A stretch of DNA of 29,348 nucleotides, taken from UHGV virus genome UHGV-0299458, one strand, 5' to 3'. Below are positions 16,578-18,084 of this stretch, piece after piece. The position numbers and the translations under genes are program-made. Below the pieces are notes generated by a model. The model had not been told where the DNA came from. It searched no databases and saw only the letters and a list, made by a program, of their open reading frames with translations. This DNA is from a virus. The first letter of the stretch is position 1. The number at the start of each line of letters is the position of its first letter.

Positions 16578-16837
16578 GGTTCTTTCCACCATCTGAAAAA
16601 TGATTCTTTAAAATACCTGACATGTAATACAGAAAAAACACAAAACCATACCTTAATTAAAAACCTCATCATCAAGCAGATATGCATGGATAAACTACAA
16701 GACGAGATATAAACCACCCTGCATTTAAATAAACAATAAACAACATCAGAAAAATAATTCTGCTCTATGGTTTACAATCAAAAATATCATTTATACTTTT
16801 CAGAACATCACCAGCAAGGCATAAACAAGGAAACTAA

Positions 16838-17173
16838 ATGAAGTGGATTGTGATTGATACAGTTATCCAGCCATCATGCGGAATATCTTTTTCAGTCATA
16901 TGGAGTAAAATAAAATTAATAATCTGGTATCAATCGGATGCTTTCTTACCTCCTGAAAGTATATTTACACTGACTCACACAGGCATCATGCTCAATAACA
17001 AAGTGCTGCCTGTAACCATTTACAACGTAGTACCATTCAATAAAACATTCTGGAATTTAATCAAAAACAGCCAGGAATGCCCTACAAATACAGATAACGT
17101 ATTGAATGAATGCTTTAATAACCGTTGCACTCTGCAAATATGTCCTTATGGGCTAAAACAACAAAGTCCATAA
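16838..17173 (+). CDS. Hypothetical protein (111 aa) in AT-rich cargo island
   Basis: ATG 16838 preceded by AAGGAAAC; upstream AT-rich region with TTTACA-17 nt-TACTTT promoter-like elements; Cys-containing, no family recognised; opposite strand to late operon. Confidence 0.4.
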
Positions 17174-17207
17174 GGAGTTTACTCACATCTGACAAAATCA
17201 ATATAAA

Positions 17208-17229
17208 CAGCCCCTCCGGAGAGGGGCTG
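17208..17229. terminator. GC-rich hairpin, probable bidirectional terminator between convergent cargo genes
   Basis: cagcccctc-cgga-gaggggctg: 9-bp perfect stem; T-rich run follows on the minus strand. Confidence 0.35.
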
Positions 17230-17620
17230 GAGAGTGGCGCTATGTGCCATTGCATGGTGCCGGGTGCCTCCCGGTGAATTCAGTACCAGCACCTGAATCC
17301 GCGATTATCCCATATACCTACTCGCTGATTGCCCCTCCGCACAGGGGGATTCACCATGCCAGTTTCTTTTAACAAACTCCCCGCAAACCAGACAACAGTC
17401 AACCGCCTGAATTGTGAAGTATTTAAAAATTTCTCCCGCTAACTGATACCCGGCTAACAGTCTGGCGTTTTCTTTTTCAGCAACGGGAAAGCAGCAACCA
17501 CCACACCCGCCACCAGCACACCGTCAGCCAGCACTGACATTATCCGGCTGCTGCAATGCCATTCACAAAAACAGTAAGCAATCACTTTTTACCGTAACCG
17601 GTGATAATCCAGATATGTAT

Positions 17621-17977
17621 CTACCCCAGATGAGTAATCCGAAGTTCATCCATACCACAGGTCCTGGCTATTCTGTTGTACTCCTGAACAAGAGCAAATA
17701 ATTCTGAATTAGCCACCATGAACTCATCGCAAACCCTCTGTATAGCATCACTATTCAGAATAATAACGTCTCTTCCCGAAAGACGATCAGGAGTACAGAA
17801 CAAAACTGTCAAACGGCTGAAGGCCTTTGCTCGTTCTGCATTGACTATATCAATACGCTGCCTAAGGATGAAACACCCCGACGCCTCATCAATATTCACT
17901 CTACCCACACCATATGAATGATAAATATTTAATGCTGAAAAAACCATTAGACCGTATAACAAACACTCAATCAACAC
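17621..17977 (-). CDS. Hypothetical protein (118 aa, or 108 aa from the internal ATG) directly downstream of the tRNA cluster
   Basis: ORF with non-ATG start per the ORF track, internal ATG at ~17944-17946; AT-rich promoter-like region upstream; no family recognised. Occupies the position taken by stxA in Stx phages. Confidence 0.45.
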   Translation of the reverse strand: MLIECLLYGLMVFSALNIYHSYGVGRVNIDEASGCFILRQRIDIVNAERAKAFSRLTVLFCTPDRLSGRDVIILNSDAIQRVCDEFMVANSELFALVQEYNRIARTCGMDELRITHLG

Positions 17978-18084
17978 TTAACAGAACTTTTATTTTTGAC
18001 AAACATATAATATTTTCAACAATATCCTGAGCCAGGTATATTTCAGTATAAGGCTCTGCCGAAAGGAATCTGGAAGAATGAATA

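What the first reader, a model, noticed from the sequence alone, without database searches (positions are those of the whole stretch)
16600..18060. AT-rich cargo island at the position where Stx phages carry stx (between tRNA cluster and holin)
Directly downstream of the three tRNA genes, the slot occupied by stxAB in Stx phages, lies a strongly AT-rich ~1.4 kb island. It holds two convergent ORFs of unknown family (111 aa on plus, 16838..17173; 118 aa on minus, 17621..17977) separated by a GC-rich bidirectional hairpin (17208..17229) and ~390 bp with no long ORF. That stretch contains a possible 28-aa hydrophobic peptide with a KKK tail (minus strand, about 17454..17540), reminiscent of type I toxins. 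The composition and own promoter-like elements suggest a horizontally acquired module that could be expressed in the lysogen.
Basis: partly seen in the sequence, partly recalled or inferred. Interest (0 to 1): 0.65.

Follow-up and report, generated by a model that had tools for sequence, protein, structure and literature searches.

The report
Prophage cargo: iraL gene plus STnc100 sRNA
The "unknown AT-rich island" is a well-known accessory slot of an E. coli lambdoid prophage: it carries iraL (a characterised stabiliser of the stress sigma factor RpoS), the prophage small RNA STnc100, and two small genes of unknown function, so it is real cargo but mostly already described.

Summary
The phage late genes run on the minus strand, in the order Q, three tRNAs, cargo, lysis genes.

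- **111-aa plus-strand ORF (16838-17173):** it is 100% identical to IraL of E. coli CFT073. IraL is a characterised RssB anti-adaptor that stabilises RpoS, and its published transcription start maps to 16805. It sits in a 624-bp insertion (16579-17202) with 33% GC, the lowest in the window.
- **The "390 bp without ORF":** it holds a full-length copy of the prophage sRNA STnc100 (17199-17388, minus strand; Rfam 132 bits against a threshold of 47). The "bidirectional hairpin" is this sRNA's terminator.
- **The "type I toxin-like peptide":** it is a 43-aa member of Pfam DUF3927 (TciB-like). Nothing else about it resembles a type I toxin. The window's real type I toxin is hokD/sok, near 21.2-21.5 kb.
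- **118-aa minus-strand ORF:** RefSeq does not annotate it, but it is a real gene with a conserved core of about 92 aa (dN/dS 0.28). It belongs to a small phage family (phrog_2873), is predicted to be a helical hairpin, and has no known function.
- **Comparison with phage 933W:** the ORF92 + DUF3927 pair occupies the stxAB position, and iraL occupies the position of the sRNA AsxR.
- **Verdict:** genuine lysogenic-conversion cargo, largely already known, of low to moderate interest.

The parts
18085..18334 (-). tRNA cluster: tRNA-Ile2 (CAU, called Met by ARAGORN), tRNA-Arg (UCG) and tRNA-Arg (UCU). It marks the upstream boundary of the cargo slot in the phage late direction.
   Evidence: ARAGORN; Rfam tRNA hits; the same trio is annotated ileZ/argN/argO in 933W.
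17621..17899 (-). The likely start is the GTG at 17899; upstream in-frame starts at 17947 (ATG) and 17977 (GTG) are possible but poorly supported. It belongs to a small phage family (phrog_2873/phrog_4827), is predicted to be a two-helix hairpin, and has no known function. RefSeq does not annotate it.
   Evidence: phrog_2873 E=1.7e-70. Against a variant with 32% nucleotide divergence the alignment is gapless, dN/dS is 0.28, and differences by codon position are 25/22/42. The region upstream of the GTG has indels not in multiples of three and pLDDT below 50. Distant homologues are 91-95 aa and align from this start. The AF2 core has pLDDT of about 80 and no fold match with E below 0.1.
17454..17585 (-). 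A 43-aa small membrane peptide of Pfam family DUF3927 (TciB-like): one predicted transmembrane helix followed by a KKK tail.
   Evidence: Pfam PF13064, 92.7 bits against a cutoff of 25, covering residues 2-43. phrog_1470 TciB-like. 27 of 28 residues identical to TciB of phage JLK-2012. 56% identity to the Citrobacter homologue. PGAP annotates it as WP_001438304.1.
17199..17388 (-). STnc100-family prophage sRNA (Rfam RF02076; relatives are PasD and EcOnc27/sRNA103). The match covers the full model and includes the intrinsic terminator.
   Evidence: Rfam 132.4 bits against a gathering score of 47, E=4e-31, model positions 1-206 of 206. The same family sits at the same position in 933W (207.7 bits, 75 nt after stxB), CFT073, JLK-2012, mEp460 and others. 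Literature: PMC12370729, PMC5331693, PMC12711010, bioRxiv 10.64898/2026.05.13.724894.
17208..17229 (-). GC-rich hairpin that serves as the intrinsic terminator of STnc100, followed by a T-run on the minus strand. It also lies 35 nt beyond the iraL stop codon, but on the plus strand no T-run follows it.
   Evidence: Terminator scan: minus strand CAGCCCCTCTCCGGAGGGGCTG followed by TTTATATT; no terminator-like site on the plus strand downstream of iraL. It forms the closing stem of the Rfam STnc100 model.
16838..17173 (+). iraL coding sequence, 111 aa: an RssB anti-adaptor that stabilises RpoS. It is transcribed against the phage late direction.
   Evidence: 100% identical to CFT073 WP_000871291.1 (c1429, IraL). 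NCBIfam NF007393 IraM, 162 bits against a cutoff of 121. 62% identity to K-12 IraM. Matches the solved IraM structure 8TWD at E=9e-32. Function from Hryckowian et al. 2014, PMC4045071.
16771..16805 (+). iraL promoter region: a TTTACA hexamer (16771-16776), a TATACT -10 element (16792-16797), and the published transcription start at 16805.
   Evidence: The 5'-RACE sequence ACATCACCAGCAAGGCATAAACAAGGAAAC from CFT073 matches 16805-16834 exactly and only once. The hexamers were read directly from the sequence; their 15-nt spacing is why the consensus scan missed them.
16579..17202 (.). The AT-rich iraL module: a 624-bp insertion between the nanS-p start codon and the STnc100 terminator.
   Evidence: Similarity to relatives that lack iraL (L005, L006, L008) stops at 16578 and resumes at 17203. 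GC is 33.0%, the lowest in the window. The module is present in 1428 of 5426 complete E. coli genomes.
17244..17372 (+). A 42-aa ORF that PGAP lists as a truncated pseudogene. It lies antisense inside STnc100 and is most likely an annotation artefact.
   Evidence: PGAP 'hypothetical protein, incomplete' at this position. No Pfam or NCBIfam match. It falls entirely within the Rfam STnc100 match on the other strand.
16389..16592 (-). N-terminal remnant (DUF1737) of the NanS-p sialate O-acetylesterase gene. It marks the downstream boundary of the cargo slot.
   Evidence: Pfam DUF1737, 62.1 bits. 59% identity to residues 1-56 of the 645-aa NanS-p of L005. A C-terminal remnant lies at 16231-16392.

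Best explanation
The region is the accessory-gene hot-spot of a lambdoid prophage, of the type integrated at potB in E. coli CFT073. It lies between the late antiterminator Q with its tRNA cluster and the lysis cassette. It is a mosaic of three modules.

1. **ORF92 and DUF3927 (phage late strand).** A roughly 92-aa helical-hairpin protein of the phrog_2873 family is followed 35 nt later by a 43-aa DUF3927 (TciB-like) membrane peptide. This pair occupies the position that stxAB holds in Stx phages. Its function is unknown.
2. **The Hfq-type sRNA STnc100.** It ends in a strong intrinsic terminator. In a lysogen, where Q is absent, this terminator would be expected to end transcription coming from the tRNA and cargo side.
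3. **iraL (opposite strand).** It sits in a 624-bp AT-rich insertion between the STnc100 terminator and the nanS-p remnant, the same place and orientation as the sRNA AsxR in phage 933W. iraL is transcribed from its own sigma-70 promoter in the lysogen. Its product binds the N-terminal domain of the adaptor RssB, so that RssB no longer delivers RpoS to ClpXP. RpoS is then stabilised during growth, which converts the host to a stronger general stress response.

**Shown here:** the identities, boundaries, synteny and composition of the modules, and purifying selection on ORF92.

**Taken from published work on the identical gene:** the iraL transcription start, RssB binding and RpoS stabilisation.

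**Inferred:** that the terminator insulates iraL from late-strand transcription, and any role for ORF92 and DUF3927.
For: - **iraL identity:** 100% identical to CFT073 IraL in the same gene order (Q, tRNAs, DUF3927, STnc100, iraL, DUF1737, holin). It passes the NCBIfam IraM cutoff, is 62% identical to K-12 IraM, and matches the IraM crystal structure sequence.
- **iraL expression and function:** the published transcription start is found exactly at 16805. Published work shows that IraL binds the RssB N-terminal domain and stabilises RpoS in log phase (PMC4045071). iraL mRNA rises in a fur mutant and at 37 C.
- **STnc100:** 132.4 bits over the full model. It is found at the same position in 933W, 75 nt after stxB, with AsxR abutting it on the opposite strand. 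Other copies are expressed, bind Hfq and have been seen on Northern blots.
- **Module boundaries:** similarity to relatives that lack iraL breaks at 16578 and 17203. Phage mEp460_ev081 shares only 17251-18090, while the vB_EcoS phages share only 16560-17417.
- **Composition:** the iraL module is 33% GC, the lowest in the window.
- **ORF92 is a real gene:** dN/dS is 0.28 with no gaps at 32% nucleotide divergence. Homologues of 91-95 aa occur in other enterobacterial prophages.
- **A recurring cassette:** in Citrobacter braakii an ORF92 homologue precedes TerB (TciA), DUF3927 (TciB), two holins and an endolysin.
- **Prevalence in 5426 complete E. coli genomes:** iraL module 1428, ORF92 + DUF3927 module 1183, both together 863.
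Against: - No expression data exist for this particular window or strain. iraL function is transferred from CFT073 by sequence identity.
- The STnc100 promoter was not located. The sRNA could instead be processed from the 3' end of the cargo or late transcript.
- STnc100's targets and function are not established in the literature I read.
- The MFE fold of this copy is not significantly more stable than shuffled sequence (z = -1.66), although the covariance-model score is far above threshold.
- RefSeq does not annotate ORF92. Its start codon is uncertain and no strong Shine-Dalgarno sequence is evident.
- The antisense frame of ORF92 also shows low dN/dS (0.25), as expected from codon-phase symmetry. 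It contains stop codons, however.
Confidence: 0.88

Rival explanations
1. One reading: a single horizontally acquired island of two unknown-family ORFs, separated by a bidirectional terminator and an ORF-free spacer that encodes a type I toxin-like peptide.
For: - The peptide is small and hydrophobic with a KKK tail.
- The region is AT-poor to AT-rich in patches.
- The ORFs converge on a hairpin.
Against: - One of the ORFs is the characterised IraL.
- The spacer holds STnc100, and the hairpin is its terminator, with a T-run on one strand only.
- The peptide belongs to DUF3927/TciB. It lies in an operon-like position 35 nt after ORF92, and in JLK-2012 it overlaps the tciA stop codon by 4 nt.
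- No antitoxin RNA family or antisense promoter-like site was found over it.
- The modules occur separately in other phages.
Confidence: 0.05
2. The 118-aa minus-strand ORF is not a gene. It would be a chance open frame in the leader or spacer between the tRNAs and DUF3927, as RefSeq's omission of it implies.
For: - PGAP never annotates it, although the DNA is present in 1183 complete genomes.
- The mEp460_ev081 annotation also omits it.
- It has no Pfam or NCBIfam match.
- It has a weak ribosome-binding site and an uncertain start.
Against: - The 92-codon alignment to a variant with 32% nucleotide divergence is gapless. dN/dS is 0.28 and third-position changes are in excess.
- It is a PHROG family member at E=1.7e-70.
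- Homologues at 22-44% identity and of the same length occur in Citrobacter and other prophages, with conserved motifs (ERAxAFS..TPDR..AN.EL..LV.EYN).
- The core is confidently predicted as a helical hairpin.
Confidence: 0.08
3. iraL and STnc100 form a functional convergent pair. Because the shared hairpin lacks a T-run on the iraL strand, iraL transcripts would read into STnc100 antisense. Expression of each would then modulate the other, by transcriptional interference or RNA duplex formation, and would link RpoS stabilisation to the sRNA.
For: - The iraL stop codon is 35 nt from the hairpin.
- No other terminator-like site on the plus strand follows iraL.
- In 933W another regulatory RNA, AsxR, sits in the same convergent position abutting the STnc100 3' end.
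- The phages that carry iraL all share it together with STnc100.
Against: - This is inference from geometry alone, with no transcript 3'-end data.
- A strong 9-bp GC stem can terminate or pause RNA polymerase without a perfect T-run.
- STnc100 is found without iraL in most prophages, and K-12 iraM has no STnc100 next to it. Neither element therefore needs the other.
Confidence: 0.12

Closest known systems
iraL (c1429/ycgW) of uropathogenic E. coli CFT073, on the potB-island prophage (Hryckowian et al. 2014, mBio, PMC4045071)
   Same: The protein is 100% identical (111 of 111 residues). The neighbouring genes are the same: Q, tRNA-Ile/Arg/Arg, DUF3927, STnc100, iraL, DUF1737 remnant, class II holin. 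The sequence at the transcription start is the same.
   Different: CFT073 has an IS200 between Q and the tRNAs, and a short YdfR gene where this window has a 297-aa DUF1327 ORF. Nothing differs within the finding itself.
IraM (K-12 b1160), the Mg2+-starvation-induced RssB anti-adaptor; crystal structure 8TWD
   Same: It is a homologue: 62% identity, the same NCBIfam model, and the structured residues 1-78 align without gaps. Both inhibit RssB.
   Different: The locus is different (next to e14, with no STnc100, tRNAs or lysis genes) and there is no similarity in the flanks. Published work reports that IraL binds only the RssB N-terminal domain and acts in log phase, whereas IraM contacts both domains and is PhoP-induced.
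STnc100 (Rfam RF02076), also known as EcOnc27 or sRNA103 downstream of stx2B, and its relative PasD of EPEC
   Same: The covariance-model match is full length, the terminator hairpin is the same as in several copies, and the position is the same: after the cargo genes and before nanS-p.
   Different: This copy scores lower than the 933W copy (132 against 208 bits) and has a shorter central region. Here it follows DUF3927 rather than stxB.
The stxAB / AsxR arrangement of Stx2 phage 933W
   Same: The backbone is the same: Q, ileZ-argN-argO, cargo on the late strand, STnc100, a convergent element on the opposite strand, nanS-p, S, R.
   Different: The late-strand cargo is ORF92 + DUF3927 instead of stxA2B2. 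The convergent element is a protein gene (iraL) instead of the 53-nt sRNA AsxR. nanS-p is reduced to remnants.
The tciA-tciB (TerB + DUF3927) cassette of phage JLK-2012 and of a Citrobacter braakii prophage
   Same: The DUF3927 peptide is shared (27 of 28 residues identical to JLK-2012 TciB). The slot between the tRNAs and STnc100/nanS-p is the same. In Citrobacter an ORF92 homologue lies directly upstream of TerB-DUF3927.
   Different: The window has no TerB gene, and ORF92 shows no similarity to TciA. The first 11 residues of the peptide differ from JLK-2012 TciB.
Type I toxin-antitoxin systems, for example hokD/sok in this same window
   Same: A small single-helix hydrophobic peptide with a basic tail.
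   Different: There is no antisense or overlapping RNA family, no antisense promoter-like site, no long folded leader and no stand-alone transcription unit. hokD/sok is recognised separately at 21177-21501.

Membership tests
IraM/IraL family of RssB anti-adaptors | Sequence membership: scores above the curated cutoff of NCBIfam NF007393 over the full length | tested here: met
   162 bits against a cutoff of 121; residues 1-110 on model positions 1-113 of 114.
IraM/IraL family of RssB anti-adaptors | Identity with the experimentally characterised IraL of CFT073 | tested here: met
   111 of 111 residues identical, same RefSeq protein WP_000871291.1, same synteny.
IraM/IraL family of RssB anti-adaptors | Own sigma-70 promoter active in the lysogen | tested here: inconclusive
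   The published 5'-RACE start sequence is present exactly at 16805 with TATACT 7 nt upstream. Activity in this strain was not measured.
IraM/IraL family of RssB anti-adaptors | Binds RssB and increases RpoS half-life | not testable with these tools
   Known for the identical CFT073 protein (PMC4045071).
STnc100 sRNA (Rfam RF02076) | Covariance-model score above the gathering threshold, full-length match | tested here: met
   132.4 bits against 47; model positions 1-206 of 206; not truncated.
STnc100 sRNA (Rfam RF02076) | Rho-independent terminator at the 3' end | tested here: met
   A 9-bp stem with 7 G-C pairs followed by TTTATATT on the minus strand.
STnc100 sRNA (Rfam RF02076) | Conserved position in lambdoid prophages, between late-strand cargo (stxB in Stx2 phages) and nanS-p | tested here: met
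   Seen in 933W, PPwrbA, JLK-2012, mEp460, CFT073 and L008.
STnc100 sRNA (Rfam RF02076) | Expressed as a discrete Hfq-associated transcript | not testable with these tools
   Reported for other copies in EDL933 and Sakai. The promoter of this copy was not identified.
DUF3927 (Pfam PF13064; TciB-like) | Pfam score above the gathering threshold | tested here: met
   92.7 bits against 25; residues 2-43 on model positions 7-53 of 53.
Type I toxin-antitoxin toxin | Small hydrophobic peptide with one transmembrane helix | tested here: met
   The sequence IMSVLADGVLVAGVVVAAFPLL followed by KKK.
Type I toxin-antitoxin toxin | A cis-antisense or adjacent sRNA antitoxin that overlaps the toxin mRNA | tested here: not met
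   No Rfam antitoxin family at E up to 1 over 15800-19400, and no plus-strand promoter-like site over 17440-17600. Absence of a signal is not proof, but nothing supports it.
Type I toxin-antitoxin toxin | Independent transcription unit with a long structured leader | tested here: not met
   The gene starts 35 nt after the ORF92 stop codon. The JLK-2012 homologue overlaps the tciA stop by 4 nt, and the Citrobacter homologue overlaps TerB likewise.
Type I toxin-antitoxin toxin | Toxic on overexpression | not testable with these tools
   No data found; a search for DUF3927 returned a single paper with one passing mention, which I did not read, and a search for TciB returned only unrelated papers.
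Cargo slot of lambdoid and Stx phages (Q, tRNAs, cargo, lysis genes) | Located between the ileZ-argN-argO-type tRNA trio downstream of Q and nanS-p/holin | tested here: met
   Window order compared with the 933W annotation.
phrog_2873 / phrog_4827 (ORF92 family) | Profile match and a conserved length of about 92 aa | tested here: met
   E=1.7e-70. Homologues are 91-95 aa and align end to end with the core.

The most novel reading that the evidence does not exclude
ORF92 is a real protein that RefSeq does not annotate, although its DNA is present in about 22% of complete E. coli genomes. Together with the DUF3927 membrane peptide it may form a two-part accessory cassette, a reduced form of the ORF92-TerB-DUF3927 cassette that sits directly before the lysis genes in other enterobacterial prophages. 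Its function is uncharacterised; it could act on the membrane, for example in lysis timing, superinfection exclusion or toxin-like activity. Separately, iraL and STnc100 could be coupled by convergent read-through across their shared hairpin.
Probability: 0.15. Interest if true: 0.45.

Novelty: already known. Interest (0 to 1): 0.22.

Why it matters
- **Main result:** an apparently unknown island turns out to be a known lysogenic-conversion locus. iraL raises RpoS levels in pathogenic E. coli and has been linked to niche adaptation of uropathogens. STnc100 is one of the most widespread prophage sRNAs and sits directly downstream of stx2 in Shiga-toxin phages.
- **Slot anatomy:** the comparison sharpens the picture of the stx slot. 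It contains two sub-slots separated by STnc100. One lies on the late strand and holds stxAB, tciAB or ORF92 + DUF3927. The other lies on the opposite strand and holds AsxR or iraL. This helps in reading other prophages.
- **The one new item:** ORF92 is a conserved, selectively constrained small gene that standard annotation skips in more than a thousand complete genomes.

Tried and rejected
- **ORF118 as a TciA (TerB) relative.** It sits where tciA sits in JLK-2012, but BLASTP found no alignment.
- **Fold identification of ORF92.** The AF2 model is a simple helical hairpin. Foldseek against PDB and BFVD gave only non-specific coiled-coil hits with E above 0.1.
- **ORF92, DUF3927 or IraL as defence-system parts.** PADLOC returned no hits.
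- **Remote homology of ORF92.** A profile search of 1.84 billion representatives found only 21 small proteins, none annotated. tblastn against phage genomes found only mEp460_ev081, plus ST64B sb55 for a distant member.
- **Literature on DUF3927 and TciB.** Nothing useful was found.
- **STnc100 promoter.** The consensus scan found none. About 50 nt upstream of the Rfam start is conserved across copies, but I could not assign -35 and -10 elements with normal spacing.
- **PGAP pseudogene 17244-17372 (+) as a degraded known gene.** It has no family match and lies antisense inside the sRNA, so I treat it as an artefact.
- **A first related-loci scan with the most divergent alignment.** It failed because no stretch was conserved enough. 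A narrower alignment worked.
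Full report
**Orientation.** The phage late genes of this window run on the minus strand. In the late direction the order is as follows:
- a Q-type antiterminator (18478-19299);
- three tRNA genes (18085-18334);
- the region of the finding;
- a DUF1737 fragment (16389-16592);
- a class II holin;
- a DUF1327 protein;
- a lysozyme.

"Downstream of the tRNAs" therefore means towards lower coordinates.

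**Check of the observation.**
- Both ORFs, the hairpin and the small hydrophobic reading frame are at the stated coordinates.
- The AT-richness is real but patchy. The finding as a whole is 39.9% GC against 51.1% for the window.
- Two stretches cause this. The stretch 16579-17202 is 33.0% GC, the lowest 624-bp stretch in the window: only 0.07% of such windows are as low, and the window sd is 5.1%. The stretch 17900-18084 is 31.4% GC.
- The centre has ordinary composition, 51-55% GC.
- The hairpin (9-bp stem, 7 G-C pairs) is followed by a T-run only on the minus strand.

**The 111-aa ORF is iraL.**
- It passes the curated NCBIfam model for the anti-adapter protein IraM (162 bits, cutoff 121) and is 62% identical to K-12 IraM.
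- It is 111 of 111 residues identical to the protein encoded in the potB-associated prophage of E. coli CFT073.
- That gene (c1429, formerly ycgW) was characterised as iraL. [quoted passage not shown] Its transcription start was mapped by 5' RACE (PMC4045071).
- The published 5' end sequence occurs once in the window, exactly at 16805-16834. A TATACT -10 element lies 7 nt upstream (read).
- The sequence also matches the solved IraM chain of the IraM-RssB complex (8TWD, E=9e-32).
- The CFT073 locus has the same neighbours as this window.
- So this ORF is not of unknown family.

**The "ORF-free" stretch holds a known sRNA.**
- Rfam finds a full-length STnc100 (RF02076) on the minus strand at 17199-17388, with 132.4 bits against a gathering score of 47.
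- The GC-rich hairpin at 17208-17229 is the terminal stem of that model, and the minus-strand T-run completes an intrinsic terminator.
- STnc100 is a multi-copy prophage sRNA. EDL933 has 11 copies, one verified by Northern blot.
- The copy downstream of stx2B was found independently as the Hfq-binding EcOnc27/sRNA103. It lies 75 nt after stxB.
- The family is related to PasD of EPEC.
- I confirmed the geometry in phage 933W. STnc100 starts 75 nt after stxB2 (207.7 bits). The sRNA AsxR abuts its 3' end on the opposite strand, and nanS-p follows.
- The PGAP "pseudogene" at 17244-17372 (+) lies antisense inside the sRNA, has no family match and is best regarded as an artefact.

**The small peptide.**
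- The 28-aa reading is the conserved C-terminal part of a 43-aa ORF (17454-17585, GTG start). That ORF matches Pfam DUF3927 over nearly its whole length (92.7 bits), and PGAP annotates it.
- It is 27 of 28 residues identical to TciB of phage JLK-2012, where it follows a TerB-domain gene (tciA) with a 4-nt overlap.
- It is 56% identical over the helix to a Citrobacter homologue in the same arrangement.
- Apart from being a short hydrophobic helix with a basic tail, it meets no defining feature of type I toxins that I could test. No antitoxin RNA family or antisense promoter-like site overlies it. It is not a stand-alone unit.
- The window's real type I system, hokD/sok, lies at 21177-21501.
- The function of DUF3927 is unknown, and I found no experimental literature on it.

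**The 118-aa ORF.**
- RefSeq does not annotate it in any of the genomes inspected, but it matches phrog_2873 at E=1.7e-70.
- A diverged E. coli variant (57-61% amino-acid identity) aligns to its last 92 codons without a gap at 32% nucleotide divergence. dN/dS is 0.28 and third-position differences are in excess (25/22/42). The other frames have stop codons or a dN/dS of about 1.
- Upstream of the GTG at 17899, similarity decays and the indels are not multiples of three.
- AlphaFold2 gives pLDDT below 50 for residues 9-24 and about 80 for a two-helix hairpin at residues 29-107.
- More distant homologues are 91-95 aa and align from that start.
- I conclude that a gene of about 92 aa (17621-17899) is real.
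- Its function remains unknown. There was no Pfam, NCBIfam or PADLOC match and no significant fold match.
- Context gives one hint. In a Citrobacter braakii prophage a 44%-identical homologue directly precedes TerB, DUF3927, two holins and an M15 endolysin. ORF92, TerB and DUF3927 thus recur as a cassette next to the lysis genes, and this window has a version without TerB.

**Mosaic structure.**
- Similarity to relatives that lack iraL stops at 16578, the nanS-p start codon, and resumes at 17203, just below the STnc100 terminator. iraL therefore lies in a 624-bp insertion.
- Phage mEp460_ev081 shares only 17251-18090 (ORF92 + DUF3927 and most of the sRNA).
- The vB_EcoS phages share only 16560-17417 (iraL plus the sRNA).
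- Stx phages share only the sRNA.
- Among 5426 complete E. coli genomes, 1428 carry the iraL module, 1183 carry the ORF92 + DUF3927 module and 863 carry the whole 1.5 kb.
- Compared with 933W, ORF92 + DUF3927 sits where stxAB sits, and iraL sits where AsxR sits, in the same convergent orientation. One contig even carries two cargo units, each followed by its own STnc100 copy. This suggests that the sRNA acts as a recurring module boundary, but that is my inference.

**Mechanism.**
- The best-supported account is lysogenic conversion through iraL. IraL is made from its own sigma-70 promoter and sequesters RssB, so that RpoS escapes ClpXP. This is published for the identical protein and inferred for this strain.
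- STnc100 is probably a trans-acting Hfq-dependent sRNA. Its terminator would also stop transcription that is not Q-modified before it runs antisense into iraL; this is inferred.
- ORF92 and DUF3927 are real genes without an assigned role.
- One speculative possibility remains. The hairpin lacks a T-run on the iraL strand, so iraL transcripts may read into STnc100 antisense. Only transcript-end mapping can decide this.

**Verdict.** The residual novelty is the unannotated but conserved ORF92 and its association with DUF3927. Interest is low to moderate.

Noticed in passing
window 21177-21332 (-) and 21330-21501 (-): A hokD-type toxin ORF (51 aa) with an Rfam sok match (106.7 bits). This is a genuine type I toxin-antitoxin locus in the early region of the same prophage.
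   Followed up: partly
window 16231-16392 (-) and 16389-16592 (-): The NanS-p sialate O-acetylesterase gene (645 aa in relatives) is reduced to an N-terminal DUF1737 piece and a short C-terminal piece, so it has an internal deletion.
   Followed up: partly
window 14971-15864 (-): A 297-aa ORF lies between the holin and the lysozyme. Only its first 100 or so residues match DUF1327 (YdfR family), so it is about three times the usual YdfR length. The C-terminal 200 aa are unassigned.
   Followed up: no
window 18378-18397 (-): A strong terminator-like hairpin with a T-run lies between the Q stop codon and tRNA-Ile. This is where tR' and the short pR' transcript are expected. Rfam gave only a weak, sub-threshold Trp_leader-like hit here.
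   Followed up: no
window 17621-17899 (-); RefSeq loci L001, L002, L004: PGAP never annotates ORF92, although its DNA is in 1183 of 5426 complete E. coli genomes and the frame is under purifying selection. PGAP does list a pseudo-CDS antisense inside STnc100 (17244-17372, +).
   Followed up: yes
L016 2989-5181 (Citrobacter braakii ATCC 51113 prophage): The gene order is ORF92 homologue, TerB (TciA), DUF3927 (TciB), Phage_holin_8, Phage_holin_3_7, M15 endolysin. The ORF92/TerB/DUF3927 trio sits directly upstream of a lysis cassette and has no STnc100.
   Followed up: partly
L008 1370-6508: One E. coli contig has two cargo units in tandem after the tRNAs, each followed by its own STnc100 copy. 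The first is a TolA-like gene. The second holds an AraC-like regulator, an IS3 element and an ORF92 variant. The IS3 insertion truncates the 5' end of the ORF92 variant.
   Followed up: partly
window 17165-17173 compared with L005 about 3975-3990: The last bases of iraL (GTCCATAAG) also occur directly beside the STnc100 terminator in phages that lack iraL. This may be a trace of the recombination joint, or a chance 9-mer match.
   Followed up: no
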